From Mytilus galloprovincialis (Eukaryota): a stretch of DNA of 64,000 nt. Position numbers and translations under genes: made by a program. Below are positions 1-59,789 of this stretch, one piece after another (within the stretch, counting starts at the first letter, position 1; every line of letters starts with the position of its first letter). The DNA lies in NCBI RefSeq assembly GCF_965363235.1, contig NC_134842.1, positions 20,221,521 through 20,285,520 of the forward strand, written 5' to 3'. Under the pieces are notes generated by a model, which worked only from the letters and a program-made list of their open reading frames with translations, was not told where the DNA came from and did not search any database.

Positions 1-552
1 TTTTGGTCTCGAGCTTCACGGAGAAGACATTAATTGTCAAAATGCGCATATTAAAGGTATATTAATCGGATAAAATTGTTATGTTAGCTCTTACTTGCTT
101 GCATTATTATTCACAGTCATTGTACAGCTACACGAATTAGATTCAGACATTTTAACTTGGATTTTATTATAACTACTTTTACCTTATCCAATTATCACGT
201 CACACCGAAAAAAGCCTTATAAATCTAATTTTCCCAATAAAAGAATAATTTTGGCAGACAGCAGATTTTAATCGCTAATATGGAGATACAAATAATCTTG
301 TAATGTTATTGATTAGATTTCCTATTTAATCGAATTATTCTAACTAAAAAAGAATGTTGTACTACCTCACAGATTTTTCTTGTACTTTAAGAAAATGTAT
401 CTCTGTGCTTTCCTCTTCAAAAAAAATAGTCTCTAATATTTAATTAACTGTGCATTTGTATTCAGATATCGCAGATCAAATTTATTCGTTCATTGTTTAA
501 TCATACGTTTTTTGATTGAGTTAAGTCTGCCAATTGATATTTTATCGTATGT

Positions 553-7300: not shown

Positions 7301-7930
7301 AATTGAAGTGTTTCCTACTTTGAGATATTTGACGATGGATACGCCATTATAACGCACGACTGGCACAAATGTAGAATCCTAATTCTGGTATCTTATCTAT
7401 GATGAGTATATATACATATAACTTGTGACAATCTTTAATGACGAAATTAATCAGATGCGATTATAGTATCACAGTAAAGTTATCCTCTGCAAATTTGGAT
7501 TTATCGAACATTTAATTATGTTCTTGATTTGTTAACTCGCGAACCCTTCCTCTATATCTGTTTATGTTCATTATATCAAACCAAATAAATTAAACTCTGC
7601 TGATGATTGATATATATTTGAACGCTGCTTTTGCTAAAATACAAACGTACACAAATGACAGATTATTTCGTAAACAATTGTGACAGTCGTAGATAAATGG
7701 CACTAGAAGGTGCCCGTGAAATCCAGAAACAATTGAACAAGTGTTGAAACAAATAGTTTTAAAACTGTGTGGTCAGTACGTCGACTGCATATGCGCGAAA
7801 GCGTTAAAGACTCGGATCGATAACGGTCTCCGAATTTGGTTATTTTCTCAAAAAGTGCCGTTTTCTGTGGAACAAAATATTTTATAATAATTTAGGAAGT
7901 ACAAAACACTGCATTTATACGTCATATCTT

Positions 7931-7961
<31 letters not shown>

Positions 7962-10427
7962 TGGTGCGGCTCAACGAAATCGGTCTCTTTCTTAATTCGT
8001 ATAGATTATAATTTAAAAGGAAATCCATTCTCGTTTATCACTTGGTAAATCTGTGTTTCATTTAATTTTTACCTCGTGTGTATGAACTTCATATCTCGTT
8101 TTCTATTTCTGTGTATGCATATTTTCTAAAATGAACGAGTTGATTATTTTTGTTCTTTGATAGAAAATTGACGCCTTCGTAAGACCTTAATTGAACGGAT
8201 TTGAAATAATTAGTAATATTAGAGTTAAAAGATTATTTTTCGAATGCCAACTAGAAAATGTTTCCAATAAATGAAAGACTTTTACACTTTTAAATTGGCT
8301 TTAATCTTACAAATCAAAAGAAATTTAGAATGGATCGTGCAAATGGTAATAAATGCATCAAGTTGGATAGATAAAAGAAGCTAAGTACTTAATGATTTAA
8401 AATCAAACACATTGTATGAGACTAGTAGATCTTTTGAATAAAAAGAACGAAATGACTTATAGAGCAGATTAGACAAATATTGTGTTTGTTTATTCAACTC
8501 TAAATAAGAATTTTCCTAGAGTACATGTTTAAAAAGACAAATCCAATGACAATCTTACAAGGAATGACTGCAATACATTTTCTATCTACTTGAAATAATC
8601 TACAAAATGTGATGTACACCTTTAAATAACCACCTACGAGGATTATTGAGCGTGCAACACCGTGTTAATGTTATTTTTCGTAGACAAAAAAAATATCAAA
8701 GTGGTTCCTGAATAAACAGACACTATTGGTTCTTTTGAATTGATAACATAATAATCTATAATTATGATTTTACTTTTTATGGATCGATCCCCTACAGACT
8801 CACGTGCAAATAATAAAAACAATGTCAAATGTTAAATGGATATTTGAGAAAATAAAGATAACTGTCAGAAAGGCTGACTATCATAAAAGATTGTTTCACC
8901 TTTTTCTAACAACATAAACAAAGACTTTCTTAACTTTTTTTTAAATAAGATGTTGATACTTCTTGACAGAAAACACCAACAAATATGTCGTCGCGAACTT
9001 TCCAAATCTTTATGCATCCAGGAATATAAATAAAAAAATAGATTGAGTATAAGAACAATGCAAACGTGAAAATAAAGTTTTTCAATTTTCATAATTTCAG
9101 AAAGAAAATTTGGCATGCATATAGTTCATCGGAAATCTACAATGTTATACTTCATTACTTTTATTTAACTTTATCTGGATAATAGGGAAAAACCTGAAGG
9201 GATAGAACAAGGAATCATTGTTGCTTCAGAACACTGGTGTCGACGAACTATTACAATGTTATGAAAAGTCTGGAAATTTGGTAAACTTTACAGACGAAAT
9301 TTGGTATATAGTATCAAAAATATATCTACAATTTTACACTCATTACATCCAATTAATTTTATCTTGATAATTAAAAATACCCGAACGGGCATAACACGGA
9401 ATCATTGGTTTTTCATAAATTGTAACACCTGTGTCGATGAACGTTTGCAATGTAACAATCAATTTACGTGAACTGCCTTAGGTCCGTATATAGGATAGAT
9501 AGTAGATAACAAGAAATACATCATCAAACTAAAGGAATAAATGTTAAAAGTTGATCTTAGAGAATAATAACATTCACAGCAAATAACATTATATTATCAA
9601 ATATTTTTTATGTGTTTTGCTCTATAATTATTATGCATTATATTTTTCTTCTAACGATCGACGATTTTTTTTTTATTAAAACGTGGCATGAAAAAAGTAT
9701 TTGAAACATAACCATTTGTTCTCCCATGCATTCCGCAGAACAAGTGACAAGTGACAGAGCGATTTTCTCTCTCAAAACAATGTGAAAAAAGAAAAGGAAC
9801 ACAATTCTTTAATTTAAAATATGAGTCATACCGATTACAAACAAAAAATCCTTCTTTCTGCGTCTTCCCATTATTCATCATATTGTTCTATTCAGCAGGA
9901 ACTGAAATCATTACAAAACGAAAAACTAATTTTGTTTTAATTTTGTGTTTAGACGAAATGATAGCCAGGGAATTGAAGCAAGTCTTTTGTATTTAGTTTT
10001 CATTAAATAAACCACAAAACATAGGATCCTAGAATTGCTCTCAGCTGTTGATCATAGACGACAAATTCTCCTGAGTCATTTTAGTGACACACTTAATTAT
10101 TCATTTAGGTTCTGATTTTCGTTGATATTGTAAGAGAGAACATAAGGTTGTCCATATTTAGATGTCGCTTTACTGTATCGTTAATATACAAAGGGCACAA
10201 CGCCACTGAGTTTTTAAATGTATTAAGGTTAAAACAAATATGTCTTTATGTTCTGTTGAATATTATTTTATTTTCGAAATTGTGATCTTAAAGAAAGTAT
10301 TTCTATTTTAGAACCTTTTATTTGAAATGAAATGATTGGATAGGTTAACAATTGAATTGATAAACTGCCAATATAGTACTGTCTAGAGAAAAAAAATATT
10401 ACTATAAAAAGAAATAAAAACCTCCAT

Positions 10428-10448
10428 AAAAAAAAAAAAAAAAAAAAA
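10428..10448 (+). repeat. poly-A tract of about 21 nt
   Basis: Homopolymer run. It directly precedes a short repeat shared with 3538-3595. Confidence 0.9.
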
Positions 10449-13239
10449 CACACAAAAAATACCCGTTATAGATTAAATGTGTACGACGACTATCTGTTTT
10501 GCATTTAACTCACCAAAAACGCTCACAGCCGAATATCTAAAAGCCGAAGATGTATAAAAATCGAAACTGTTGATGAGCTATATGAACAACAACAGACCTA
10601 AATAATAATCAAATCAATCTTAGTTTAACTTTTGGGTTGAAACCCAAGTTTCTTATAATTTCGAAACTTATTAAGTAACTGTATTAGAATACTTTGTTAT
10701 AAATCATGTCAGTACAAATATACTGACTTCTAAGCTGGTACAATGAAACAGAACCCTAAAATCCAAGAAACCCAAATAATAAAGAAAGGTCACTTACAAG
10801 ATCATATACTTTAACATATTTCAAATTTTTAGTGGCACCAAGCACTGTCTATGCAAAGAAAGTATTAATTTAGCACAGTTGGCCTTGATTTAACAATGAA
10901 CTCAGGATTCTCACAGGTCAAATCCCTTGTTTGTTAAATTTACTGATTCATAAAGGTCATTTATTGCTGCATAAGATTTAGGTTAACATAGAAGTAATCA
11001 TTAAAACAGTTACATATGTCACTAAGAGAGGGGCGAAAGATACAAGAGGCACATTTAAAAATCACTTCAATTAAAACAAAAATAAATGAAGTGAAGCATT
11101 TACTAAATTAAACAAAATCTGGCGAAAGTAGACATGAAATTTTCTGTTCTGTACTTTGTGTGAATATATTTGTAAAGTTTTTATCTACAAGGCTAAGTTT
11201 ACATTAAAATTGATCTTTTTGGTCTTACATCAATACACCAACATCATAAAAAAACCTTACATACGAGTACCTATCAATAAAACGGGAAAGAAGTTTCATT
11301 TATGTCAGAATGCATTTTAAACTGTAATCATGGAAGTTTGTGTAACGCTCAAAATAAACACTGAGAAAAATAAAGGTTAAGAACAAATGTTGCTTTAGTA
11401 TTTTCGCATTTTCTAAATGATTCTAGACTTGTAATTTACAATTATTTGTATCTTTACTTTCAATGAAATATTTTTATGAATTTGGTATGCTAGATAATTT
11501 GTAGATTTAAAACTGCATATGTTTTAAAATTGTTCTTTCCACAAAATAAGCTTGTGTAAGTTAACTACAAATTGTAAGTCATCAGAAAAGGAAGAATACT
11601 CAAAATGTTGCTTTGAAAAAAAACAAGGCACACTGTGAACAAATACTAATGAAATCTCTTTCTGGGTAATGACCTTTCTTCCATTAATTCTTTAACATTG
11701 TTAAAACCATGTCCGATCAATCAATCTATAGAAAAGGCTTGACTGGTGAAGACTTATATATTCAACAAAAATATTAGTGAAATACAAAAAGAGAATAGAT
11801 TTAATTACCATTCTCATCCATTCAATATGATTTATCACTCGAAATCAAACATAAATATTGTAAATGTCCATGCAAGTGTACGGAGACAGTCATTAATGGA
11901 ATATTAAAGTAATGAAGCGAATTAAAATAGACAGTTCATAATATTTAGTCGCAGTATATTGAAAATAAAATCAAAGCAAAACAAAATTGTTGAACAACGT
12001 TGCTTCATAATCATAAACGAGGAAAAATAATATCGGTTGAAATAGAATCTTTCCAATATCTGTGTTTGCAACAGTATTGATTGGCAGTAATTAATTATAC
12101 GCTTTGTTTTACCATACGCTTGTTTTATTAAATGTTTATATTTTTTCAAAGTTTGCATCGACTTAAAAGTTTAAATGTCCTTTGTCATCTTTAACCTATC
12201 TTTTATTAGAAGGTGTTTGTTTAAGTGCTGTTTGATATGACATCTAGTAACAAATATTTCATATCATGCACTTTTGAAATAATTTTTTATACCTATGGTT
12301 GGATATGTGAATTCCTCTTCTTTAAGTAATAATTGATAGAGGTAATCAATGTATAAACCTCTATCAAATCATTCTCCCCCGAAAAATAATTAAAAAGTGC
12401 TAGACCAGTTAAAGTAAGTAAAATAAATCACTATTCTACACCTGGATTTTAACCATGTAATACAACAGTATATTTTTTATTTGCCCATTTGACCTTTTGT
12501 CTTTCATCTTCCGCCCAACATGTTAAGAACATTCACCCATATGGGTTACCATATCCCGTTTATTATTAAATACACAATTGGATGTACATTTGTTGTTTAA
12601 AAGGCAGCAACATTTGTTCCCATCATTTTTGAATATCTTTATGAGTTTGATTCTTGGAAGATTCTGTTTTCAAAGGAACTATAGAGAAACGTATTCCTTT
12701 TCTGGAAAAGTCAATAACGACCAAATGATATTTTCAATATCTTAATTACTACAATTTCTTTTTTGCACAGTAAGTTTATATCTTATATAGACTTTGAAAC
12801 CCCAAATGGGTTAATTATCACCCATATGCTTGTTTGGTCCCAACCTGTTCGAATCAATCACCAACCTTGATAAATACCTTGGTAGCTCAGGAAAATGGTG
12901 TGGACATATCACATGGGGATGTGTATTACGAGCTTTCTTTGTGTAGACAATGAAGGATCAATTTCAAATCTTTCTTTTTCTATACCATGTATTGACGTAT
13001 GTAATACATCAATGTTTAAAAGATGACTGAGAGAAATTGAAATACATGAATCAAAATACGATTTAACGACATTTCAATCCATCTTTGAAATTTCTGTAAA
13101 TATCTAATTTTGTGGTTTTGTGGAGACAATTACTAGTACTAGTACAAACACAACATACTTTGATATAGTTGAAATGTCATCCATTTTGCAGAATGTCTTA
13201 TTGATTCAACGTCAATGATTAAAAAGGGAAAAACATGAT

Positions 13240-13450
13240 CCAACAGTAGTATACTGGTGTACAAAAGTCATGAATTAATTTAGAGTAAACAGATCCAGGT
13301 CACAAACCAAAACCGAGAGAAACACATCAACTGTAAGAGGAAATCTAAGGACCAACAGGAACACCGACCGAAGTGCAACAAAAACACACAAGGAAACGAA
13401 GAAATAGTTATAAGTGTATAAAAAGGCAAAATTGATTATACCAATGACAA
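13240..13450 (+). repeat. Interspersed repeat family B copy
   Basis: caacagtagtatactggtgtacaaaagtcatgaattaatttagagtaaac...acatcaactgtaagaggaaatctaaggaccaacagg. Confidence 0.7.
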
Positions 13451-13971
13451 CCTCCTAAACTTGAATTCTTTCTATTTAAAAATAGCTTATCCGTCCCGAC
13501 AATATCATGATGTCAATATATTTATATCGACTAAAAGGTGTTGGCAGGAAAATAAACTTTACTTTGGACTCTAGGTGGGCGGCTCTCTAACCACAATGTA
13601 CAACATGTACAATGTTCAGCTCTGTATTTTCGTAGAGTTTGTTAATTTGAAATTTAAAAAAAAACAGGATAGTTTAGTCTTAGATGCATGATTTTTTTAT
13701 TAGTTGTTAGTGGCTTTGAACTAGCTGTCAGATAACTGCGAGTACTCTCAGATCTGTTCCTAGTGTCTTTTTGTTGTCGGGATGTACAAGTACCCGGCCA
13801 CGTCCACTTGCATTTTGTTCATCTGATGAGTTAAGCCTTTTTCAACTGATTTTTATAGTTCGTTCTTATGTTGTACTGTTATACCACTGTCCCTGATTAT
13901 GGGGAGGGTTGTGATCCCGCTAACATGTTTAACCCGCCACATTATTTATGTATGTGTCTGTTTCAAGTCAG

Positions 13972-25781: not shown

Positions 25782-26148
25782 ATGAACAAACTTGTGTATT
25801 CCATATGGATATTGTTGACAATTGCTATAACGATTTTAACAATATTTTGTATATTTAACCCTGCATGGTATATACACAATAACCATATACATTCATTTGG
25901 ATTGACAGTATTCTGTGAGGGATTATCAACCGAGGATCAACAAATTCAAAGTCGGTGCCAAACATACGGAGGAACATTTGGTCTGGCGAACATACCATCT
26001 GGAGCGTGGCAAGCTTCGTTTTTGTTAATTTCTACAGGAGCATTTTCTTTCGGAGTCACTGTGATATTGGGAATATTGATACATTGTATCAGAGAGAGAT
26101 ACGTCTACAGTATAAGTTCACTTGTGCTATATCTACAAACATCGGCAG
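25782..26148 (+). CDS. LHFPL-like: Tetraspan membrane protein (LHFPL/TMHS-like) exon 1; ends in phase 1 at GCAG|gtaagt
   Basis: ORF MNKLVYSIWILLTIAITILTIFCIFNPAWYIHNNHIHSFGLTVFCEGLSTEDQQIQSRCQTYGG...ASFLLISTGAFSFGVTVILGILIHCI...LQTSA. TM1, a Cys-containing extracellular loop and TM2 are present. The (N/Q)P(A/Y)W(Y)I ... FGL..(F/Y)C.G motif resembles the LHFPL family. Canonical donor G|GTAAGT at 26149. Confidence 0.6.
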
Positions 26149-26649
26149 GTAAGTCCTGTAACATGATTTGCAGGTTTAAAAAACAAATCGGTATGATAAA
26201 TATCACTATAGTAGACAAATTAGTTTATATCAGCAATTATTATGCCCTGATATTACCTTTATTTTTTTTTATGTTTATTGTAATTTTACAAAAACGGATA
26301 TTTATGTTTTTGTTTAATCATATAATATTATTCTTTAGTCATTTTTCAAGGCTAATTTGTAGTGAACAAAAAAATCGGAATTTATCAAACATCATAAAGT
26401 AATCATCACTTCAAGGGCGTTGAAATTCTGAAAATGTTAAAGTAAGGCTAATCATCTTTACAGAATTTAAGATGACATGGTAGGCAAATATCCAAATATG
26501 ACTGCTTTAAGACTTAACAGAAAAATCTGTTAAAAAAATGTACTGGAGGAAGTAGGCCAGCTCTGTCGAACAAAAAGTAGAATTTTCTTTTGTAGATCCA
26601 TTTTGCCTTCATACTTGTTGTCAGACTTCACTTTGTTTGCAAAATATTT

Positions 26650-27420
26650 AGCTTTGAGGTTGAAAGATCAATGAAAAACCCGAATAAACAGTAAACTATA
26701 TCTATTATGCCGGGGTCACATATTGGCATATAGACCGGCGTGCACCAAATGTACAGAGAAAATTGGCAAAGTCGGTATACGCTAGTTGCACGCCAGAGAA
26801 GGCTAAGCAATCGTTAAACGCGCGTTGTTTAAGTTTGAATTACGTCGAAATACAAAGGTATACGCTTGGAGAACGCTTCAACTGGAGGAAATTTTGCAGC
26901 ATAAACATTTTCATCCAACTGAAGCGTGTGTCTAGCGTATACCTGTACGCTACACGTACGTTATACATACGCTACAAGCGAGTTTAACGCGCTACAGATA
27001 AGTTTGAGACACGTTTAGGGCACGTTTTATACGCTTCGAGATCGTTCGACTTTAACTTAAACGTATGCGGGTGTGTTTGTAACAAACACCATCTAATTGA
27101 ACGTCCAAGATACGACCGGGACGCGTCTCAAATATGTTAAAGAAACTTTTTTTCCTCGTAGCGTGTATTCATCTACGTTAGACAAACGCCAGGCATACAC
27201 AACCATACGTTTCTTGAAGGCCCGATAAACGCGTAGGTACGCTTCTCGTACGCCCAATTCACGATTAAAGCTCGTTGTGCACACGTTACAGATTTGATTG
27301 ACAGGTTGAATGCATCCAAAATTACTAACGTATTGGCAGCGGACATGATTTTCTAACACGCCCGGCGTACGTCGGAGCAATACGCTGATTTGTGACGCCG
27401 GTATTAGATAATACAGGTCG
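26650..27420. other. CpG-rich, GC-elevated block inside the LHFPL-like intron
   Basis: Dense ACGCG, CGTACG and TACGC motifs in an otherwise CpG-poor, AT-rich region. It carries overlapping long ORFs on both strands (26763-26987 +, 27093-27440 -) with no recognisable domain. Confidence 0.6.
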
Positions 27421-27512
27421 TATTTTTGAAATGAAAACATATTTCGTAAATAAATATTGTTCTAGTATACTTTTCCTAAAAATATTTACAATGTTTTATA
27501 TATATTTTTCAG

Positions 27513-27739
27513 TTTTGTTGATAATCTCGGCATTAGTTACATTTCCGGTAGGACTCAGCTCTCACTACTTCCGGTACTACTGCGGGGATTCTGCGTCTGT
27601 GTTTTATTCAGCTAACTGTTCCATAGGATGGAGTTATATGCTGGCAATCATGTCTGTATCACTGTCAATATTCTGCCCAGTTCTTTGGTGCTTTAAGGAA
27701 ATGAAATGGAATGAGTTTCAGTTTAAGGAATATGTATAG
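27513..27739 (+). CDS. LHFPL-like: Tetraspan membrane protein (LHFPL/TMHS-like) exon 2 (terminal, TAG at 27737-27739)
   Basis: Acceptor tatatttttcag at 27510-27512. Phase 1 joins G+TT to give ...SAVLLIISALVTFPVGLSSHYFRYYCGDSASVFYSANCSIGWSYMLAIMSVSLSIFCPVLWCFKEMKWNEFQFKEYV*. This supplies TM3, the second extracellular loop with C..C and a conserved W, and TM4. It resembles the C-terminal half of TMHS/LHFPL proteins (C.I.W..MLAI.S). Total about 197 aa. Confidence 0.6.
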
Positions 27740-40662: not shown

Positions 40663-41711
40663 TTATATCATTTCAATCGTAACGTTGTGATTCTTACCCA
40701 GTTCAGTTCCGGAAATTTGTACTTGTATTTCTGTTTCCCCTAAAACCACTTGTACTTTTATGTTTTCAGTAATCGTTGGATTTGGTTTTTCAACTTTGAT
40801 TACTCCCAATTCGGAACACCCTTCTTCATCCGTATACATGGGATTTTCTTTTTCTGTTTTGAAAATATGCAACTTGAATTCTCCGCCTTCACTTGGTCGA
40901 CTTATAGCCATTGTCTTAAAAATTTTGCCTGGTTGAATGGGTTGCTTACGCTTAAGAAATGCATCGAATAGACCAATACACTTGGCTTCACCATTTACTA
41001 TTTCAAGGTGGTTCTGATCATGAATTGCAGGGTCAAATGTTTTTTTCTTCCTAAACCCATATGTACACCTCGCTATTCTGTGAGCTATGATATTTGGTTG
41101 GTGACCAAACATTACTGCGCCTTGCATAACGGCTAAATCACAGTCCTTTGGCACGATAACTGTAAGTTTGGGAAAGGTATCTTTTACTGCCTTTTGAACA
41201 AGCATGCATTGTGAAAAACCTCCAACCAAAAGAATTTGAGTTATTCCATCGCAACATTTCTCAGAAAGAATGTCTAGCATAAGTTTAATCAGAGAATCAA
41301 TTGTTAACTGAAATAAAGATGTGAATAGACTAAATTCAAATCTTATTTTGTCTCCTTTTAGTGACACTTTTGATGAAAAGTCTGAAGACTCAATAACGGA
41401 TTTTAAAGTTTGTCCCAATTGTTCCTTACAAACAAGATTCAATGCATTAGGTATTTTCATATTTATTCGCCCAGTGGTATTAGGTTTAATTGATCTCTTC
41501 TTAGTTTCAAACTCTCTCGATAGATCAAGGTAATTAGCAAGATGTTCTCCTTTTAATGCATTCATTATTGCTGGATTGGTGATTTTCTCCATCAAATTGA
41601 AAAACTCAGCATCTACTGATGTTCCCCCACAATTACTACCAGAGGCAAAATATATTTCTTTTAGTCTTCCATTATTGATTTTTTCATGAACTGTTATATC
41701 AGCTGTGCCAC
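40663..41711 (-). CDS. HSPA12-like: HSPA12-like exon 4 (terminal, includes TAA stop at 40663-40665), 1049 nt
   Basis: Minus strand ttttag|GTGGCACAGCTGATATAACAGTT completes the codon carried over from exon 3, giving G-GTADITVHEKINNGRLKEIYFASGSNCGG... and a 349-codon C-terminal part. A possible AATAAA lies 11 nt after the stop (plus tttatt at 40647-40652). Confidence 0.85.
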
Positions 41712-41944
41712 CTAAAATTTTTGAAGTTATGAATATCACATTGAATATATGTACACATTTTAATCATTTTACAATGACTTGATCTCAGCTTTCTCAGATC
41801 TGAAATCATTATCCAAACCAAAATGATATGTTTAACAGTTTCATTTTACGCAATAACATTCCTTCAAGCATATGAATTCGAAAGACATTAAATAAAGCAC
41901 AATTGTATGTTTCTTTTTCACCTGTAAAAATTGCGAACAAATGG

Positions 41945-47714: not shown

Positions 47715-49554
47715 TGTATCAGTTCAAGTGTACCTTTCACACAATAAAACATTTACAGCATGGATTCATCTAGTTGTCAAATACCGGCTGAAATTAAATA
47801 AATAGTTTTAAATGAATATGGTGGTAAAAGTTATTTAAACATATCAAAAAGACAATATATAAGTATATTTTCATATAGTCTCTTCTTTTATCCTTCGTAA
47901 GATATCATTGTAGAAACATATCACAACAAAGAAGAAGCATTTGAAAATCCAAAACACAACCATAAATGGAAACCTGTGAATGAAAATAAAATAACATTTT
48001 ATTAAAGGTGCCTTTCGTCAGGAATATTTCAACCCCAAAATATGAAAGTAAAAGATACATAAGTGCATTGATATGGAAAATGGGAAATATTATGACCAAA
48101 CGAGATCCAAAACTAATAACCCAATTGCAATCCATCAAAAAGCAACTTTGATTTTAGTAATAGGAAGTCTCTATAATTATGTTAACGGGGAATTAAAGAC
48201 ATAAAGGTCATAGTATAGACGCACTGCATACTGAGCAGGTGCTCCTCACAGGACCTAGCGATACAGAAGTGTATGCTGTGATTGTTTTTCGGTCTTTTTC
48301 GTTTTTTGAAATGAAGTTTTCAGTTATTTTTTACTTTAATATTATTTTGTGTCAATAACATATATTTCGCATAACCTTCGTTTGTTTACAATGTTGTTAA
48401 ATCGGGTCGGTCTATTTGACTTACAGATGAATTTTTCACTGAAATTCCTATCTATATTTCAATTTAGTTATTTCAAATGAATCACTTAACGCGTAATATT
48501 TCATCCTATGCTATATTTAGAAATCAAGGTACAACCACATAATCTTTCTGAATAACCGTCCTTATCATTGGATTTTAACTTTCCATGAGCAACGGAGCCT
48601 CCAGCTTTTCAAGTACTGATCATCTTTCCATTAAGACTTTGTTCATCTCTTGTTTTTTGTCAGAATTGTGTTTTATATTCAATTTTCATCTCTTATTCCG
48701 GGAAAAAAATATTTCTTTGAACGCTTACCTTTCGACGTTGTACTGAACGTTTGAAGGCCAACTCGCGTCCACATTTTGTAGTAACCAATTTACATCAACT
48801 GTGTCGATTTTCAATTCGGCGAGCTGTTGTTGGACCAGATATGAAACTTCGGTTAAGAATTGAATCAACAATCAACTTAATGAAATGAATGAGCTGTAAA
48901 AAATTCGGTCAACGTCTATAAATGAAATCCATGGTTGCGAAGACAGTACTGAATGGTTCCACGTGACTATTCAAAGTTCACATACTTAATATTATTTCTT
49001 TTATCTACTCGAATAATGTCGCATAATCTTATTGATTTATATCTATTTACCCTCACTTAAAGATAGGTCAAAAGATATAAAATTACAAGGTTAAAAATGT
49101 GCGACGCATTTTGTTTTTATTCGTAATATTTTAAACGCGATAGTCACGATAAAGTGCCATGGCCTAATCGGGGCTTAAGCGCGATAATTTGATCCACTAA
49201 TAAAGTGCGATGGTCTGTGCTTTTCATTTTAACACGTTAAAGTGCATTTTCCCACAAAATATCAACGTTAGCAACGTTCAACAGTATTAAATAAAATTTA
49301 AATAAAAACAGCTAGGGTACCAAAAACAAGTATACCTTTTTACTTTCTAATTAATAATTCTATAAAAAGAATACATTTTTTATTTTAAAATGACAGCAAC
49401 CTAACGGACAGATGCATAGTATCATCATATGATTGCCAATATGACTTAATGTATGCAACCTTTGTTACAGTATAACCTTTAACGTGGAAAAATCGATTTG
49501 GCTTACACTGCATAGTATTTTTTATTAAGACCAAAGGGTCTCAAAAGAAGTGTG

Positions 49555-50818
49555 TGAAGTTAGCAGCCGGTTCGTTATTCGATATTCGATATTCAAAATC
49601 TAGTGAAAACCATAAAAAAACAAATACTTTATAACATTAAAAGCATTATTTTTATAGTTAAGAGGACTTTGAAGATACGTAAGAAATCGTTAAATGACCT
49701 CTTCAAGGTGTCGTAAATTCTCGTTGTCAAATATAAACCCTTTTCCAAGTTGCATATTTGTCTTTATATGTTATATAGATTTTTGTCAATAAAACGACCT
49801 CAAAAATTCCTCTATGTTGTATAGATTTTTGTCAATAAAACGACCTCAAACAGTGGCGGATCCAGAACTTTTTGTAAGGGGGGGGGGGGGGGGCCGCTCC
49901 AGTCACATTTCAGTGATTCCCTGTATAATCAACCAAATTTTTCCCACGAAAGGGGGGGGGGGGCGGGCCCCTCAGCCCCCTGGATCCGCCTATGTCAAAG
50001 ATTTACTTTATATATGCTATTTTTTAAAACAAAAAGAAACACCGATAACTCTAGAAACATTTAGAATTATAAATAGAAATATTTATGGAAACCCAAAAAA
50101 AAGAAATACATAGCGAAAACCTACCTCAGACCGCTTAAATGAGAGTGATGAGTCCCCTGGTCTTAAAATGTCCTTAAAATGTAACCAAATCATAGACTAT
50201 ATATATTAAAAAAAAGGTGTATTAGAAGGGGTTTTTAGGATAATGTCATCTTCGATATCTACGGAGGGCTTAGATTGTCACTTTTCAGCTAAAAAATGTC
50301 AAAATTGTACGACAAAGGGCACAGGGCAATTGTGAGACCCCTGATATCTCAATCTTTCTACTATTATGTAGACATTAATCAAAAGGTAGACACAAACGTA
50401 ACTAACTTGGGTACACTTCCGCTCTCTCATGTTTACGGAGCGCCTAAAGTGCCAGTTGGATATTCAAAATATATAGCGAAAACCTACCTTAGACCGCTTC
50501 AATGAGGGTGAAACCGCTCTGGTCTTCCAATGTCTATCAAATTCAACCAAATCATAGACTCTGTATATGCAAAGGTTGTATTAGTGTCAATCAAAAATGT
50601 TGACGTCACAACCGTATTGAGTTGGGTTTTTTTTTGTGTTTTTTTTAACATAAAAAACGTATAATTCTTAAGTAATATTATCATGTCATCATTTTCATTT
50701 AACATGTTTAAAGAGTTTTTCTATGATAACATAATATTGTTTAATATCGAACTGGCTGTTAGCGGCCAGTTGGATATTGAATATCGAATATCGAATAACG
50801 AACCGGCTGCTAACTTCA
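49555..50818. mobile_element. 1264-bp element bounded by perfect 41-bp terminal inverted repeats (non-autonomous DNA-transposon/MITE-like or foldback element)
   Basis: Left end 49555-49595 tgaagttagcagccggttcgttattcgatattcgatattca. Right end 50778-50818 is its exact reverse complement, tgaatatcgaatatcgaataacgaaccggctgctaacttca. The interior carries about 95-bp direct repeats (50108-50200 and 50472-50565), a 45-bp tandem duplication (49768-49850) and a nested poly-G palindromic unit. No transposase-like ORF. Confidence 0.7.
49855..49990. repeat. Poly-G palindromic mini-element: 11-bp inverted repeats GGCGGATCCAG / CTGGATCCGCC flanking G16 and G12 runs
   Basis: ggcggatccagaactttttgtaa-G16-ccgctccagtcacatttcagtgattccctgtataatcaaccaaatttttcccacgaaa-G12-cgggcccctcagccccctggatccgcc. 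This causes the spurious ORF 49814-50113. Confidence 0.8.
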
Positions 50819-51183
50819 TATACATGTAACCCCAGTGTAAAACAATTCAAATGACAAAAATGGCAACGTGAGTTAAATACATGAACAAAACAATAAACGA
50901 ACAGAAAATATGAAATATGCAAAAAAAAAAATACCACTAAATTCCGGATAAACTAACTACTGCAATGTAACTATTACACTTTTAGGACAACTTTCAGATC
51001 GTACGTTAAATAATAACAAGAATACATGTTTGTAGTATGAAATATATATCCAACCACAAATGTAGTTCATGTATATATTCAGTTATTATAAGGCCTTCAA
51101 AGTAAAGTCTTCATTGTGTGTAAATTTGAGTTTTTGATTGGACTGCGTTAAGTCATTCTAATTTACATTTTATAGTGGTGTCT

Positions 51184-51553
51184 TTCTATGTTGTGATGTT
51201 TTACTATTGTTTCAGAAAATTGAGATAGTTTGGTACCATTAAAACGTTTAATCCCGCTGCAAATGTTGTACCTCTCCTAGCTAAGTCAGGAATCTGATGC
51301 ACAGTAGTTATCGTCTGTTTATGTAGTTCATACCTGTTTCTCGTTTTTCGTTTTTATATAGATTAGACCGTTGGTTTTCCCGTTTGAATGATTTTACACT
51401 AGTAATTTTTGGGGCCATTTATAGCTTGCTGCTCGATGTGAACCAATGATCCGTGTTGAAGGCCGTACCTTGACCTATAATGATTTAATTTTATAAATTG
51501 TTACTTTGATGGAGAGTTGTCTCATTGGCACTCATGCCACATCTTCCTATAGC
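51184..51553 (+). repeat. Interspersed repeat family A, long subfamily copy
   Basis: Aligns along its full length with 553-922. Confidence 0.8.
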
Positions 51554-54500
51554 TATTGGACAATGCTTCATAACAAGCTGTATATAGTTATACAGTGAGC
51601 AGTGTAACAAATATCAACAAAGAAAGACTACGGCTTGATGTATAGATAAAACGATAAAAAAGGCATAGGAACTCAGCAACAAACGAAACCCATTGCCTGT
51701 ACCAAATTCCCGTTCCTCCATTGGACTTTGGCGTGTCATACCATCGCACTTTTGCGTGTTATCTGATTGCACGTTCAAACCAAAAAAAAAAACTATCGCA
51801 CTCCAGCGACTGACACCATCGACCTTAATCGTAGACCAATCTGACTTAAGATTGACCATCATGCTTTATAGTACCATTGCACTACATAATCCTTCATATC
51901 TGTATATGAATAATGAAGCAAAAAGGTAGAAAGAATATAAGAGGCAATACCTAACAATAAAAAATAGAAGAAATCTAGTAGATAAATGCATCATTAGACA
52001 TGGTTCAAAACAAGCTCAAAATCGGCTCTTATAGACAAAGTCAAGCCCAGTCGAGACTAGATATAAAGGTCGAGGATGAGTCGAGACAGTATTCAGTCTC
52101 TATTTAAATGATCAAGTACTCAATCAGAATTATTAGGTAGCAATACACAGTCAGAAGATTAGGTTCGCATTATGGCCATGGTGAATTTTTAAAATATGAT
52201 AGTTTTTGTACAATAAAATTAATGTTTAGATAGTGGATGAATAGTATGGCCTTCCAAGTGGATTTACATTAATATTTAGATTGTTTTAGCATATTTTATA
52301 GGCATCGATTTTGTTTGACAGTCCGTACTTTGCTATCCGTACCGCCCAGAAATTATTGTAGTGTTTTTCAACAAAGATTTGACGTTCGATTGTTTTCAAT
52401 TAAATTTTTTGGAAAAACGTGCAGAAATGCATATGATTTTTTTGAACCTCTTGATATATAAATGTCTATGTTTTCTGATAAGGTATCACTCTCATCGATT
52501 GCAACTTTCCTTTGGACCAAATTATGGAGACTTTTGGGACATTTTCACCCCTTTCCTTGCAATATTTTGTATCAAATAATTGCAGATTTTTGCCATGATT
52601 ACACCAAAAAGATATTATATTTCACCATTATAACTATTGGAAATAAAATCTATGGAAGATTCTTTTTCCATAAATATATATACACATGCAGAAGATAATT
52701 ATTAAGCCTTATTTGTAAGAAAGGCAGGGAAACAGGTAGTTTTAAAATTATAAGTGTCATTTTTTTCCCTAACTGTATATTGCTACTTTGAATAAAGTCT
52801 AGAACAAAGTCGAGTACATATATGTATTGAACTAAATACAAATATCTGATATAATGGTGAAAGAGTTCAACATATGAACAAACTATGAAAATCAGTAGAA
52901 ATGGGCATTACACATCAGATCAGTACAAAACAAAAAAAGTAATAAAAGCATAGACCGGACATGACAGAGTATTTATATATCCCTACAACAAAAAAGACAC
53001 TTAATACAGATCTTCGAATACTCGCAGGGACTGATATTTTGTTCAAGTCCAATAACATCTTTTTAAAAAACATTTATCTAAGATTTTGGTATCAATCAGT
53101 AAACTGCCAACATTTTGTGGATCTAGTGTAAAGGCGACATTTCCAACCAGACAAAACGTGTCCCTATCCAATGCCAAAATATAGGTATCGACACATTGTA
53201 GATAAAGGCAACAGTAGTATACCGAAAGTGATAAATCGATTGACAGTGAATATGTATATAACATTAAAATTAGTTGGGTGTTAAATTATGGGTAGCAAAA
53301 CAGTAGTACCAATTAAACAATGTTTTCAACGAACAATTATCTTCAAGATAACGATAAGTGTTACTAAAACTATCAATTAAATGCAGTTGAGACCGGTCTA
53401 CACTAGCAACTATTATTTATATCAACATGAACAATACAAGATCAATTCTGTCATAAAAAAAGAGGCGCAGTAATGTCTGCTTGAATTAACTCTTCCAATT
53501 ATGTCAATATAAAATATGTAAAATAAAAGTCATACTAGTGTAAGGTTCAACTATCTATATATAAAACAAGGTTTAAGCCACCATTTTCTTTGGAAAAGTC
53601 TAAAATGTGTCACTTGTTTCTCATTTGTTCCGTTGTTTGATATAGTCTCAAGTTTTGTCTTTTTTATGAATTTATCCATTTTGTTTTAATTTACCTTCGA
53701 TTTCAGGCGGTTTTTAACGACAAGTAGATCTCTCTTTACCAAAAAGTCATCGGCATTTCATGGATTAGGACTGCTATTTTAGAATATCAGTTTTTTTTTA
53801 ATTCCGCCATATATTCATGTGGCTGTCTTAAATTAAGGGATGAATTCAGTTATTTTAATCGTATAAAATATTTTTTGACTCTGGATTTGGTGTATATTAC
53901 AGATCCTTTATAGTCAGTGCAGAGTTAAAAAGTAATTTTAGGATAATATAGGAGATATTATGGAAATAATTGTGCAAATCGTGATACAAGCATGAAATTC
54001 GGTATGATGGTCGACCAAATGATAAATAAAAGAAAACAGCTGCTGGCCATAAAAAAATTCCATTTTTTCAAGATGACCACCGCTCATTTTACAAATGGCG
54101 TCATACCCAATTGGCTATACTTCGTAAATCCTTTGAAAGTTGTGTTATAGGTTTAATCCAATGTAAAGTTTGATAAAAAGTAGATAACAGTTCCCAAATA
54201 CGATGAAACAGTACATAAATGACGAAAAGTGCCTTCCGGTTCAAAAATGGCGGCAAAAACGTGGAAAATTTTATTTTATTAATTTTTTTCTGATTTACAA
54301 CAGATATCACTTATTTTGTTAAGTTCAAATACCTAGTTTGGTTAAAAATACAAGTTGCGTATCTTTATTTGATTATTTGAAAGTTGCCAATACACAAACT
54401 CGTACAAGGAAGGCCAGAACGATGGCATTTAAAGTTACCAACACAGTTTTATGATTCATCTGTATTTCAAAAGTTCGTGACACGAGTGGGCAACGGCAGC

Positions 54501-57398: not shown

Positions 57399-57826
57399 TT
57401 ATTTCAACAAGAGTTTAAGTTTGAAATAGATTTGGACGATAAATGCAAAGTTGTACGTGTCGTCTGCATATAATTCAGTCTCTGTGTGATCTAATGTAAA
57501 CGGGATATCATTTATATAGATTAAGAATAATAATGGTCCTAATATGGAACCTTTTGCGACCCCAAATGTTACATTACTGTATCCTGATTCAGTAGTTCCA
57601 ATTTTAACCTTTTGCAATCTATTTGAGAGATAGGATGAAAACCACATAACAGAGTGATCATCACATTTATATAAATTAAGTTTCGATAATAAGATGTTAT
57701 GGTTAACAGTGTCAAATGTTTTTTTAAAAAATCTAGAAATAAAACAGCAGTGAAATTGCCTTTGTCAAATTCTTCTTTATTCTTCAATTTGTAGGGTAAG
57801 GTCTTGTAATAGGCCATCCCGCACAA
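57399..57826 (-). mobile_element. Degraded non-LTR (LINE) retrotransposon reverse-transcriptase fragment
   Basis: Two frameshifted minus-strand ORFs. One reads ...FTAVLFLDFLKKH... (the RT FLDFxKAFD block). The other reads LSNRLQKVKIGTTESGYSNVTFGVAKGSILGPLLFLIYINDIP...LYADDT (the GVPQGSxLGPLLF and YADD blocks). Confidence 0.75.
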
Positions 57827-59789
57827 CCAAACCCTTGTGGATGCCCCACATATTAGAGTTTAACAGTAAGACATTGCACAGGGGTGGATCCAGCTATTTT
57901 TAAAAGGAAGGATTCAAACTATATTCTATATCATGATATGTACCCTTTCAAATGCATTGATCTTCAAAAAAAGGAGGGTTCCAATCACAGGTACAATTTC
58001 ATAACAGGCCCAATTCTAACTTTGCCTTTAACAGGCCACTATGCACGAGTGCGGTGATATAGAACGTCGATTCCTACATGTATGCATAATGAAATGTGCA
58101 CATTTTTCCTTCAAAATCCATAATTATTCTGATAAACACGTTTTTAAATATTATTCATGTCTACTGACTAATTGCAATTTCGAGCGCAGCTTATATTGTA
58201 CTGTAGTTTCCCTTCTACCATGTCTACGATTTTGAGTAAAATAAGCGCACCAATTGCCAAAGCGCTGTTCTGCCGACATGAATGCAACAGAATACAGAGG
58301 GTACGGTAACGTTACGGATCAAGAATTATTTTCCGTTTTAATAAAACTTGACAGATTTTATTAATTATCATCGGAAAATGTCCCGAATGGATATAAGTAA
58401 TTCAAATTAAACCAGATTTATTATGCTGTATACATGTAACATATGTATTTTAGTCTCTAAATTTACTTCAGGTACATCGACGTAACAATTTCATGATAAG
58501 TTATCAAACCTATTTCAGATATAAATTTGAATGATTTTTCTGCAATAATATTCAAACTTAATTTTTTAGCGAAGGCTTGTGGTATGTAAAAAAGTTACAA
58601 AATGCTCTTGAATTATAGACACAATAAAAACTAAAGGTGGAAAGTCAAACGCACAAGTCTGGCAAAAATGAACGGACAATGCCATGACAAAAACCGGAAA
58701 ACGACAAAAGACATAGTTATAGTTTTCCCTGCCTCAAATTTAAAATAACTCAAATGAAATTTATATAGCTATAGATAACATAAAAAGTTATATGATAATG
58801 CATATTCATTTACAATATTTTAAAAAAGTTACATCAAAAATTTAATTAAAAATATTTAGATCACGTTTTCAAGTGTTCATCCCGACATCCGTAATTTTTA
58901 AAGGGTATAAAATTATGTTACGTCAAGTTGACAAAATTTTCACCACGGCACCAGCATACACATTTATTTGCAATCACTTGTTATCCATTAAATATAAAGT
59001 TTCAGATGCTTATATATATTCAATGAATAAACATTATTTCGGCAATCTGTTGATTGTTAACTCAATTCGCAGCGCTTTGTGCAGTAATATATGACTGAGC
59101 TTTTTTTTTTATAATATAAAAAAATGTTAAATTATCAATAAGGAAGAAGTAAGAATTAAAATTGATTTAAAAAAAAAATTAATAAACATGATTAAGTGGA
59201 CGTGGTAGACTTTCAATTAACATAAACCGTCTTCTTTCTAATGTTTATTTTATTCTTAAAAGGGGGCCCTGATAAACACTGGGAAGTTTCACCCGTCCAA
59301 ATTAATAAACACGACTAGACACGGTCTGACAAAATCTAAACGTACTTTTGTATCCATGTTCTGTTTTTGCTGACACCGTCGTGACGAATCTAAACAGCTC
59401 GCTAGAAGATTCAGTCTTGTTTATCTTGACATGCCTTAACGGATTAATTTACCTGATGAGACTATCGATCAGAATGGCGTCTAAACGGTCTTAAAAGTCT
59501 TGAGGTTTTTCTATAGAGATAAATCCAGTCAATTAAGATATGATGCGACCAAAATGACCGTTTCAGACTGAAATCGTGCTACTAGTGTATTGTAGTTACG
59601 ACATAAGGAACATATCCGATATTATCTCTGAAACGGCTATTCCATAACGGTCAACCAACTCGTGATGGCGTGTGTAACATTTACGAAGGGATCACTTCAA
59701 CTTAGCCATTATGAACTCTTCGATTTATAGCTTCCTTGTGAGTAACAATCCTCTATCAAGTAAATATTCATTTGAACATGTACATCTTA

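What the first reader, a model, noticed from the sequence alone, without database searches (positions are those of the whole stretch)
49555..50818. 1264-bp element with perfect 41-bp terminal inverted repeats, internal direct repeats and a nested poly-G unit
Both 41-bp termini are exact reverse complements (tgaagttagcagccggttcgttattcgatattcgatattca), and the similarity extends weakly about 9 bp further outward. Perfect TIRs of this length imply recent mobilisation or a foldback or cruciform-forming structure. The interior has no coding capacity. It carries two direct repeats of about 95 bp, a 45-bp tandem duplication, and the GGCGGATCCAG-bounded G16/G12 unit. I could not assign it to a known TIR superfamily and could not determine the target-site duplication by eye.
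Basis: seen in the sequence. Interest (0 to 1): 0.6.

Follow-up and report, generated by a model that had tools for sequence, protein, structure and literature searches.

The report
Recently inserted non-coding transposon in mussel
This is a 1.28-kb non-coding mobile DNA element with perfect 41-bp inverted ends, present in this Mediterranean-mussel haplotype but missing from the same spot in three other mussel genomes; it is an ordinary kind of genomic parasite, and its one unusual feature is that it left no target-site duplication.

Summary
Exact 41-bp inverted repeats lie at 49555-49595 and 50778-50818, where shuffled sequence gives none. The 46-bp tandem duplication, the roughly 122-bp direct repeats and the poly-G unit are also present.

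The window is Mytilus galloprovincialis DNA. Orthologous loci from M. edulis, another M. galloprovincialis assembly ("Lola") and M. trossulus all lack exactly 49550-50831 (1282 bp). The block is therefore a derived insertion that is polymorphic within the species. It sits inside the inverted end of an older roughly 600-bp MITE (miniature inverted-repeat transposable element), about 1.85 kb upstream of an HSPA12-like gene.

It has no coding capacity. It carries five copies of the motif GCCRGTTSG, which are the only five in 64 kb, and a strong hairpin just inside the right end only.

There is no target-site duplication. The right end carries 8-13 extra nucleotides beyond the repeat.

I read it as a non-autonomous terminal-inverted-repeat (TIR) DNA transposon of an unassigned family. 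It does not meet the Spy, Helitron2/Helentron, Tc1/mariner or Foldback criteria. I could not find a second copy, because no mussel genome was searchable by DNA.

The nested poly-G unit is a separate 144-bp hAT-like MITE with a 5-bp duplication. Its family occurs in many marine-invertebrate metagenome contigs.

Interest is modest.

The parts
49550..50831 (.). The whole inserted block (1282 bp), absent from three orthologous loci
   Evidence: L001 8091|8092 and L003 8098|8099 join window 50832 to 49549. The junctions were read directly. The boundaries cannot be shifted in either direction, because 49550 G differs from 50832 C and 49549 A differs from 50831 C.
49555..49595 (+). Left terminal inverted repeat, perfect 41 bp. 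The extended arm is 49550-49600 and starts exactly at the insertion boundary.
50778..50818 (-). Right terminal inverted repeat, perfect 41 bp. The extended arm is 50773-50823.
50819..50831 (+). Right-hand tail TATACATGTAACC. The first 5 nt are a weak extension of the repeat. The last 8 nt (ATGTAACC) have no counterpart at the left end and are not in the empty sites. The tail does not form a stable hairpin.
   Evidence: -0.3 kcal/mol, z +0.6
49571..49594 (+). Heptamer microsatellite (TTCGATA) x3.4 inside the left repeat, mirrored at 50774-50802 in the right repeat
50740..50781 (.). Subterminal hairpin (9+9 bp stem) just inside the right repeat. It is built from two opposed copies of the repeat-core motif. 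The left end has no equivalent.
   Evidence: -15.1 kcal/mol, z -3.25, against z +1.1 for the left end. One search shows the self-complementary match 50740-50781.
50451..50459 (+). Internal copy of the motif GCCRGTTSG, within the longer repeat-like stretch around 50444-50473. The other four copies are at 49566-49574 (+), 50748-50756 (-), 50765-50773 (+) and 50799-50807 (-).
   Evidence: 5 matches in 64 kb, all inside the insert, against 0.28 expected. (D4, D8).
49767..49850 (+). 46-bp tandem duplication, 1.8 copies at 97% identity
   Evidence: D3
49851..49994 (+). Nested 144-bp hAT-like MITE. Its ends are CAGTGGCGGATCCAG and CTGGATCCGCCTATG. It contains G16 and G12 runs and is flanked by the 5-bp target-site duplication TCAAA (49846-49850 and 49995-49999).
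   Evidence: (I12). Family relatives with exact 5-bp or 8-bp duplications were found in metagenome contigs.
50104..50225 (+). Direct repeat, copy 1 (122 bp)
   Evidence: 79% identical to copy 2
50467..50584 (+). Direct repeat, copy 2. It follows the internal repeat-like motif directly.
49533..49549 (+). Left part of the inverted end of the older host MITE ('MITE-B'), which the insertion interrupts
   Evidence: with the insert removed, 49533..50917 pairs with the reverse complement of 51420-51324
50832..51420 (+). Rest of the host MITE-B. It is present in all four genomes.
   Evidence: (I7)

Best explanation
The block 49550-50831 is one copy of a non-autonomous class II (terminal-inverted-repeat) DNA transposon of an unassigned family. 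It inserted recently in the lineage of this Mytilus galloprovincialis haplotype.

**Where it landed.** It sits inside the inverted end of an older MITE, about 1.85 kb upstream of an HSPA12-like heat-shock gene.

**How it moves (inferred).** It encodes nothing, so it must be moved in trans by a transposase encoded elsewhere. I infer that this enzyme recognises the roughly 20-25-bp motif GTTAGCRGCCRGTTSG(A)TATT. One copy lies in each perfect 41-bp end, and three more lie inside the element. Two of those three form a hairpin next to the right end.

**Its history.** On its way the element picked up a 144-bp hAT-like MITE, a 46-bp tandem duplication and a pair of 122-bp repeats.

**What is shown.** It is an insertion. 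It is polymorphic. It is non-coding. It has perfect ends and clustered motif copies. It left no target-site duplication and no target deletion.

**What is inferred.** That a transposase binds the motif. That other copies exist. And how integration happened without a duplication. That last point has two possible explanations: a family that does not duplicate its target, or an excised copy pasted into a chromosome break by end-joining. The second would also explain the 8-13 extra nucleotides at the right end.
For: - **Perfect ends.** The 41-bp inverted ends occur only here and are not expected by chance.
- **Clean empty sites.** Three other assemblies lack the block. Flanks are collinear at 92.7-93.4% identity over 0.86-5.9 kb in M. 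edulis and Lola, and at 82% over about 290 bp to the left in M. trossulus; the right flank there was read directly only.
- **Polymorphic within the species.** The window's HSPA12 exon is identical, apart from the first few ORF residues (upstream of the exon boundary), to M. galloprovincialis XP_076106867.1. The Lola M. galloprovincialis assembly is empty at this site.
- **Clustered motif.** All five GCCRGTTSG matches in 64 kb lie in the element, against 0.28 expected. This is the pattern of repeated transposase-binding sites known from Ac/Ds, En/Spm and P elements (established knowledge).
- **Non-coding.** No coding capacity was found.
- **Age.** The perfect ends contrast with the 79%-identical internal repeats. 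That fits an old family with a recently mobilised copy, or ends kept intact by selection.
- **Setting.** Nested transposons on both sides (a hAT-like MITE inside it, a host MITE around it) are typical of mussel intergenic DNA.
Against: - **No target-site duplication.** The insertion boundaries cannot be shifted by even one base, yet almost all cut-and-paste superfamilies make a duplication (PMC4122938).
- **Unequal ends.** The extended left repeat starts at the boundary. The right one stops 8 nt short of it.
- **No second copy.** None was found in the window (64 kb), in about 130 kb of other Mytilus DNA, or in about 0.26 Mb of invertebrate-host metagenome contigs. An exact 23-mer from the repeat gave no hit in the metagenome, prokaryote-genome or viral collections. 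These searches barely sample mussel DNA, so the absence is weak evidence.
- **No partner.** No autonomous element is known.
Confidence: 0.6

Rival explanations
1. It is a non-autonomous Helitron-like element of the Helitron2/Helentron type (a 'HINE', like the bivalve elements pearl, MgE, DTC84 and Cg_HINE). It would be copied by rolling-circle transposition. That mechanism leaves no target-site duplication, uses subterminal inverted repeats and end hairpins, and prefers TT or T-rich targets.
For: - Clean insertion with no duplication or deletion.
- The ends are asymmetric, with the inverted repeats at unequal distances from the two termini.
- On the minus strand, the repeat nearest the 5' end can pair with downstream sequence, and a strong hairpin lies there. 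Helitron2 has a comparable 5' hairpin (PMC3627910).
- On the minus strand the target reads GG|TTCTTTT. If the four-C run is a pre-existing length variant, the insert is flanked by TT on both sides, as described for HINEs (PMC4067079, PMC7492417).
- A microsatellite and internal repeats are present.
- Bivalve genomes are rich in HINEs (PMC7492417).
Against: - The repeats are 41 bp. Helitron2 and Helentron repeats are 8-15 bp.
- They lie 0-5 nt and 8-13 nt from the ends. The described pattern is 0-4 nt at the 5' end and 20-60 nt at the 3' end.
- There is no hairpin downstream of either repeat: the 13-nt tail folds at -0.3 kcal/mol and the other end has only 5 nt. A 3' hairpin is the family's key termination signal.
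- In the orientation that gives a 5' hairpin, the 3' repeat is terminal, not subterminal.
- With the three observed empty alleles, the insert is flanked by A and C on the plus strand (G and T on the minus strand), not by T and T.
- There is no central tandem array of satellite-like repeats.
Confidence: 0.13
2. It is not a member of a mobile family. It is a one-off insertion made during repair of a chromosome break, either templated copying or capture of a DNA fragment from elsewhere in the genome. The inverted repeats would simply be a feature of the donor sequence.
For: - There is no target-site duplication, no target deletion, and there are extra nucleotides at one junction. This is the usual signature of end-joining or template-switch insertions (inference from established knowledge of break repair).
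- No second copy was found in any sequence available here.
Against: - The left boundary of the insert coincides exactly with the outer end of the extended inverted repeat. That is expected if the fragment ends are defined by a transposase, not by random breakage.
- The five clustered motif copies and the perfect 41-bp ends look like functional transposon ends.
- Almost no mussel genome sequence could be searched, so the lack of copies carries little weight.
Confidence: 0.17
3. The block is ancestral and was deleted in the other genomes, or it is an assembly artefact.
For: Only one filled allele has been seen. Mussel assemblies contain many haplotype-level structural differences. For example, a 1.9-kb inversion lies only 1.2 kb away.
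Against: - Three genomes, including the outgroup M. trossulus, share the same uninterrupted sequence at the site. The filled allele has no direct repeats that could produce that exact deletion.
- The perfect ends argue for a young insertion.
- The interior is unique sequence with its own nested MITE, and is not a duplicate of neighbouring DNA. Palindromic read artefacts would not look like this.
Confidence: 0.05

Closest known systems
Non-autonomous TIR DNA transposons with repeated subterminal transposase-binding sites (large MITE-like elements; Ds, dSpm or P-type derivatives as models)
   Same: Perfect terminal inverted repeats, no coding capacity, several copies of a short motif concentrated at and near the ends, presence/absence polymorphism with clean empty sites, and nesting in and by other MITEs.
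   Different: No target-site duplication. One end carries 8 extra nucleotides. No sequence or terminal-motif match to any superfamily I could test. Copy number and autonomous partner are unknown.
Spy transposons (PIF/IS5-related; PMC4122938)
   Same: Eukaryotic TIR elements, typically 1-1.5 kb and found in invertebrates including molluscs, that integrate without any target-site duplication or modification.
   Different: Spy inserts precisely between AAA and TTT and has the terminal motif GGANNNNG. Here the target is GAA|CCA and the termini are GTGTGTGA and GGTTACAT.
Helitron2 / Helentron non-autonomous elements (HINEs: DINE-1, Cg_HINE, pearl, MgE, DTC84; PMC3627910, PMC4067079, PMC7492417)
   Same: No target-site duplication, inverted repeats placed asymmetrically near the ends, a hairpin beside one repeat, a microsatellite and internal repeats, and abundance in bivalves.
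   Different: The repeats are three to four times longer. The spacing from the ends is wrong. There is no hairpin after the 3' repeat. There is no clear TT target and no central satellite-like array.
hAT-like MITEs with 5-bp or 8-bp duplications (nested unit only)
   Same: Ends begin with CAG. It has a 5-bp duplication. It shares the end and subterminal architecture CAGNGGCGGATCCAG-N3-TTTTT-N2-AAGG(G)n ... (G)n..CCCC..CCCTGGATCCGCCNCTG with dozens of elements in coral-, worm- and mussel-associated metagenome contigs.
   Different: The core is shorter (144 bp against 170-480 bp) and the G runs are unusually long. Assignment to hAT rests only on the end motif and duplication length, since no transposase has been linked to it.

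Membership tests
Class II TIR transposon, non-autonomous | Terminal inverted repeats at the ends of the mobilised unit | tested here: met
   41 bp perfect, 51 bp at 94%. The left arm starts exactly at the insertion boundary.
Class II TIR transposon, non-autonomous | Target-site duplication of a fixed length flanking the element | tested here: not met
   The empty sites read AA|C(C/T)AGTG. The filled allele reads AA|GTGTG...GTAACC|CCAGTG. No base is duplicated. A 2-bp AA duplication is possible only if the pre-insertion allele had CCCC.
Class II TIR transposon, non-autonomous | Evidence of mobility: presence/absence at orthologous sites | tested here: met
   Empty in M. edulis, M. galloprovincialis Lola and M. 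trossulus.
Class II TIR transposon, non-autonomous | Multiple dispersed copies sharing the same termini | tested here: inconclusive
   No copy in the 64-kb window, about 130 kb of other Mytilus DNA, or about 0.26 Mb of metagenome contigs. Exact 23-mer scans of three collections were negative. No mussel genome could be searched by DNA.
Class II TIR transposon, non-autonomous | No transposase gene in the element; an autonomous partner with matching ends elsewhere | tested here: inconclusive
   Absence of coding capacity is shown. The partner could not be sought.
Helitron2 / Helentron (HINE) | Integration without target-site duplication | tested here: met
Helitron2 / Helentron (HINE) | Short (8-15 bp) asymmetric subterminal inverted repeats: the 5' one 0-4 nt from the end, the 3' one 20-60 nt from the end (PMC3627910, PMC4067079) | tested here: not met
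   The repeats are 41-51 bp and lie 0-5 nt and 8-13 nt from the ends.
Helitron2 / Helentron (HINE) | Palindrome or hairpin downstream of the 3' repeat, near the 3' end | tested here: not met
   The 13-nt tail folds at -0.3 kcal/mol, z +0.6. The other end has only 5 nt beyond the repeat. The only strong hairpin (50740-50781) lies inside the right repeat.
Helitron2 / Helentron (HINE) | Insertion into TT or a T-rich target, with T at the element boundaries | tested here: inconclusive
   The minus-strand target is GG|TTCTTTT. TT flanks both sides only if the CC-to-CCCC difference pre-existed. With the observed empty alleles, the insert lies between G and T.
Helitron2 / Helentron (HINE) | Longer relatives with the same ends that encode a Rep/helicase protein | not testable with these tools
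   No DNA search of Mytilus genomes was available.
Spy | Insertion exactly between AAA and TTT | tested here: not met
   The target is AAAAGAA|CCAGTG (criterion from PMC4122938).
Spy | Terminal motif 5'-GGANNNNG | tested here: not met
   The termini read GTGTGTGA and GGTTACAT.
Tc1/mariner | TA target-site duplication | tested here: not met
   There is no TA at the empty-site junction. TG and TA abut the perfect repeats, but they are part of the inserted block.
Foldback elements | Long inverted ends built of tandem subrepeats, plus a 9-bp duplication | tested here: not met
   There is only a 7-bp x3.4 microsatellite within a 41-bp repeat, and no duplication.
hAT-like MITE (nested unit 49851-49994) | Ends beginning CAG.. 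(hAT consensus YARNG, from memory) and a fixed-length duplication | tested here: met
   Left end CAGTG; right end reverse-complemented CATAG, with one deviation. Exact 5-bp duplication TCAAA. Family members in metagenome contigs have exact 5-bp (10) or 8-bp (3) duplications.
hAT-like MITE (nested unit 49851-49994) | Link to a hAT transposase | not tested
   No autonomous copy was sought.

The most novel reading that the evidence does not exclude
The element represents an undescribed lineage of bivalve DNA transposons that integrate without duplicating their target. Two forms are possible. One is a cut-and-paste group like Spy but with a different target and different termini. The other is a Helitron-like rolling-circle derivative with unusually long 41-bp asymmetric inverted repeats and a hairpin at only one end. 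Under either form, the 8-nt tail and the unequal ends would be true features of the family rather than accidents of this one insertion.
Probability: 0.15. Interest if true: 0.55.

Novelty: new member of a known kind. Interest (0 to 1): 0.3.

Why it matters
It documents a very recent transposon insertion that is still segregating in Mytilus galloprovincialis, a species known for extreme presence/absence variation. The insertion lies 1.85 kb upstream of a member of the greatly expanded HSPA12 stress-gene family, so it is a usable marker and a candidate regulatory variant.

The clean empty sites show integration without target duplication, which is rare among inverted-repeat transposons. If other copies behave the same way, this would add a second duplication-free group beside Spy, or broaden the known architecture of Helitron-like elements in bivalves.

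As it stands, from a single copy, it is an ordinary unclassified non-autonomous transposon.

Tried and rejected
**Searches for other copies**
- Self-BLAST of the window found none.
- BLAST against all fetched loci found none.
- Exact scans with a 23-mer from the repeat found nothing in metagenome, prokaryote-genome or viral contigs.

**Reaching other copies through spurious ORFs in protein collections**
- The 80-aa ORF across the right end gave no hit.
- The 68-aa internal ORF gave no hit among 1.84 billion representatives.

**Fetching more of the same genome**
- Gene positions of the RefSeq M. galloprovincialis assembly are not on record.

**Literature**
- A full-text search for the end sequences found only unrelated primer matches.

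**Target-site duplication**
- I tried all boundary shifts. I also tried 2-10-bp duplications around the perfect repeat, the extended repeat, and the repeat plus tail. None fits the empty sites.
- An 8-bp hAT-type duplication (ATGTAACC) is rejected because it is absent from the empty sites and from the left junction.
- A TA (Tc1/mariner) reading is rejected.
- A Ginger-like TGTNR end with a 4-bp duplication is rejected.

**Ideas that did not hold**
- I first thought the insertion lay exactly at the end of the neighbouring MITE, which would suggest a transposase-made break. I dropped this when that MITE's inverted end was found to extend at least 17 bp further out.
- The 8-nt match between the insert's left end (GTGTGAAG) and the M. 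trossulus version of the target is noted but treated as chance, because the same bases are mirrored at the right end.
- The internal 363-bp spacing is not a hidden tandem array of whole units, since only the 122-bp segment aligns.
- Rfam and tRNA scans found nothing that could explain the internal repeats as a SINE.
Full report
**Observation**

The sequence is as described. The 41-mer TGAAGTTAGCAGCCGGTTCGTTATTCGATATTCGATATTCA occurs at 49555-49595 (+) and 50778-50818 (-) and nowhere else in 64 kb. None of 100 dinucleotide-preserving shuffles gave a match. With mismatches allowed, the arms extend to 51 nt at 94% complementarity, 49550-49600 and 50773-50823.

Features inside the element:
- Each arm holds a (TTCGATA) x3.4 microsatellite.
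- There is a 46-bp tandem duplication at 49767-49850.
- There are two 122-bp direct repeats, 50104-50225 and 50467-50584, 79% identical.
- The GGCGGATCCAG-bounded unit carries G16 and G12 runs.
- The longest ORF is 99 aa and lies mainly over the poly-G unit.
- Five ORFs have no Pfam match above threshold, and two have no homologue in the large protein collections.
- There is no meaningful Rfam match and no tRNA.

**Source organism and context**

The window has about 31% G+C and almost no long ORFs. The one substantial ORF (40663-41739, minus strand) is the 3' exon of an HSPA12-like heat-shock gene. It is 98% identical to M. edulis XP_071180502.1. Apart from the first few ORF residues (upstream of the exon boundary), it is identical to M. 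galloprovincialis XP_076106867.1. The window is therefore M. galloprovincialis nuclear DNA. By collinearity with the M. edulis gene model, the annotated gene starts near window 47695. The element lies about 1.85 kb upstream of that start.

**Empty sites**

I fetched the orthologous loci through the HSPA12 protein: L001 (M. edulis, GCA_963676685.2), L003 (M. galloprovincialis 'Lola', GCA_900618805.1) and L002 (M. trossulus, GCA_036588685.2).
- In L001, positions 6914-8091 match window 52032-50832, and 8092-8948 match window 49549-48694.
- In L003, positions 6907-8098 match 52032-50832, and 8099-13911 match 49549-43790.

The junctions read as follows:

| Genome | Junction |
|---|---|
| M. edulis | ..GGGTCTCAAAAGAA\|CCAGTGTAAAAC.. 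|
| Lola | ..GGGTCCTAAAACAA\|CCAGTGTAATAC.. |
| M. trossulus | ..GGGCCTCAATACAA\|CTAGTGTGAAGC.. |
| Window | ..GGGTCTCAAAAGAA[GTGTGTGAAGTTAGC...GCTAACTTCATATACATGTAACC]CCAGTGTAAAAC.. |

The inserted block is therefore exactly 49550-50831 (1282 bp). Three genomes lack it, including the outgroup and another individual of the same species. The simplest reading is a recent insertion that is still polymorphic in M. galloprovincialis.

**Junction anatomy**

The boundaries cannot be moved in either direction, because 49550 G differs from 50832 C and 49549 A differs from 50831 C. There is neither a target-site duplication nor a target deletion. The only escape is to assume that the pre-insertion allele had CCCC where all three empty alleles have CC or CT. 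That would allow a 2-bp AA.

The extended left arm begins exactly at the boundary. The extended right arm ends 8 nt before the boundary, leaving ATGTAACC with no counterpart. This tail does not fold.

The target lies inside the inverted end of an older host MITE of about 600 bp. With the insert removed, 49533..50917 pairs with the reverse complement of 51420-51324. That MITE is present in all four genomes.

**Internal logic of the element**

The 9-mer GCCRGTTSG occurs five times in the window, all inside the insert, against 0.28 expected. One copy lies in each end. One lies at 50451 (+), directly before the second 122-bp repeat. Two opposed copies lie at 50748 (-) and 50765 (+). In context the copies share about 20-25 bp, GTTAGCRGCCRGTTSG(A)TATT.

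The two opposed copies form a hairpin at 50740-50781 (-15.1 kcal/mol, z -3.25). The left end has nothing comparable (z +1.1).

Repeated end-proximal motifs are the usual form of transposase-binding sites in class II elements (established knowledge; the binding itself is inferred here). The perfect ends contrast with internal repeats at 79% identity. That suggests a young copy of an older family, or ends kept intact by selection for mobility.

**The nested unit**

The unit 49851-49994 (144 bp) has the ends CAGTGGCGGATCCAG and CTGGATCCGCCTATG. It is flanked by the exact direct repeat TCAAA at 49846-49850 and 49995-49999.

A degenerate pattern built from this unit and a decayed relative at about 57870-57995 matched 78 metagenome contigs. 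To judge from their accessions (the samples were not looked up), these come from marine-invertebrate host-associated samples. One of them, L009, is 78% identical to window 57804-59586, so it is mytilid DNA.

Where both ends were found, 10 elements have exact 5-bp duplications and 3 have exact 8-bp duplications. The elements share the architecture CAGNGGCGGATCCAG-N3-TTTTT-N2-AAGG(G)n ... (G)n-CCCC-CCCTGGATCCGCCNCTG. The nested unit is therefore an independent hAT-like MITE that landed in the larger element.

**Comparison with known families**

| Family | Criterion | Result here |
|---|---|---|
| Spy | Inserts between AAA and TTT; ends GGANNNNG (PMC4122938) | Shares only the lack of a duplication; neither criterion is met |
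| Helitron2 / Helentron non-autonomous elements | 8-15-bp asymmetric repeats; a hairpin after the 3' repeat; T or TT boundaries (PMC3627910; PMC4067079; PMC7492417) | Shares the lack of a duplication, asymmetric ends and one hairpin beside a repeat. But the repeats are 41 bp, the spacing is wrong, there is no hairpin after either repeat, and the TT target needs an extra assumption |
| Tc1/mariner | TA duplication | Not met |
| hAT | 8-bp duplication | Not met |
| Ginger | TGTNR ends with a 4-bp duplication | Not met |
| Foldback | Long subrepeat ends with a 9-bp duplication | Not met |

I therefore file the element only as an unassigned non-autonomous TIR element.

**Mechanism and confidence**

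| Explanation | Confidence | Main reasons |
|---|---|---|
| A transposase supplied in trans recognised the repeat and motif copies, and moved this copy into the host MITE. The lack of a duplication and the 8-nt tail mean either a duplication-free family or an excised copy joined into a break by end-joining | 0.6 | See best explanation |
| Helitron-like rolling-circle element | 0.13 | Several defining features not met |
| One-off break-repair insertion of non-mobile DNA | 0.17 | Disfavoured because the left boundary coincides with the repeat end, and because of the motif architecture |
| Ancestral presence with deletion elsewhere, or assembly artefact | 0.05 | Disfavoured by three matching empty alleles and by the unique interior |

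The main weakness is that no second copy could be sought in a mussel genome. All DNA-searchable collections here are prokaryotic, viral or metagenomic. The protein-based detours also failed.

**Verdict**

This is a real, recently inserted, polymorphic, non-coding transposon. It is ordinary in kind, and its one unusual property, integration without target duplication, rests on a single copy. Interest is 0.3. There is about a 15% chance that it marks an undescribed duplication-free transposon lineage in bivalves.

Noticed in passing
window 52033-53946: A segment of about 1.9 kb, only 1.2 kb from the element, is inverted in this haplotype relative to both M. edulis (L001 4917-6915) and M. galloprovincialis Lola (L003 5044-6910). 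No inverted repeats flank it. The junctions read ..CTCTTAT|AGACAAAG.. and ..TTTTAGGATAA|TATAGGAG...
   Followed up: partly
window 49533-49549 plus 50832-51420: An older MITE of about 600 bp with imperfect inverted ends of roughly 60-100 bp (AAAGGGTCTCAAAAGAACCAGTGTAAAACAATTCAAATGA...). It is present in all four Mytilus genomes and is the target of the insertion. Its family and target-site duplication were not determined.
   Followed up: partly
window 49851-49994; loci L006-L083: The nested poly-G MITE belongs to a family with the ends CAGGGGCGGATCCAGG and CCTGGATCCGCCCCTG. The family occurs in 78 metagenome contigs that look like DNA from several marine-invertebrate hosts, with exact 5-bp or 8-bp target duplications. 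Such wide conservation of the ends and subterminal G/C runs across apparently distant hosts may deserve its own look, for example as a case of horizontal transfer.
   Followed up: partly
window about 57870-57995; L009 257-2134: A decayed relative of the nested MITE (GGTGGATCCAGCTATTTTTAAAAGG...). The ENA metagenome contig L009 (ERZ887851, 7.2 kb) is 78% identical to window 57804-59586, so it is DNA from a related mytilid inside a metagenome assembly.
   Followed up: partly
window 49878-49893 and 49952-49963: Uninterrupted G16 and G12 runs. Their exact lengths are prone to sequencing and assembly error, and they are likely to be hypermutable.
   Followed up: no
window 49552-49559 versus L002 about 140-150 (minus strand): The left end of the insert (GTGTGAAG) is identical to the M. 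trossulus version of the target sequence 3 nt to the right of the insertion point (CTAGTGTGAAGC). M. edulis and M. galloprovincialis have GTGTAAAA or GTGTAATA there. I treated this as chance, but it could reflect a target preference for sequence that resembles the element's own end.
   Followed up: partly
window 25782-26402 and 27392-27739 (+): ORFs that look like exons of a small multi-pass membrane protein. They were not examined.
   Followed up: no
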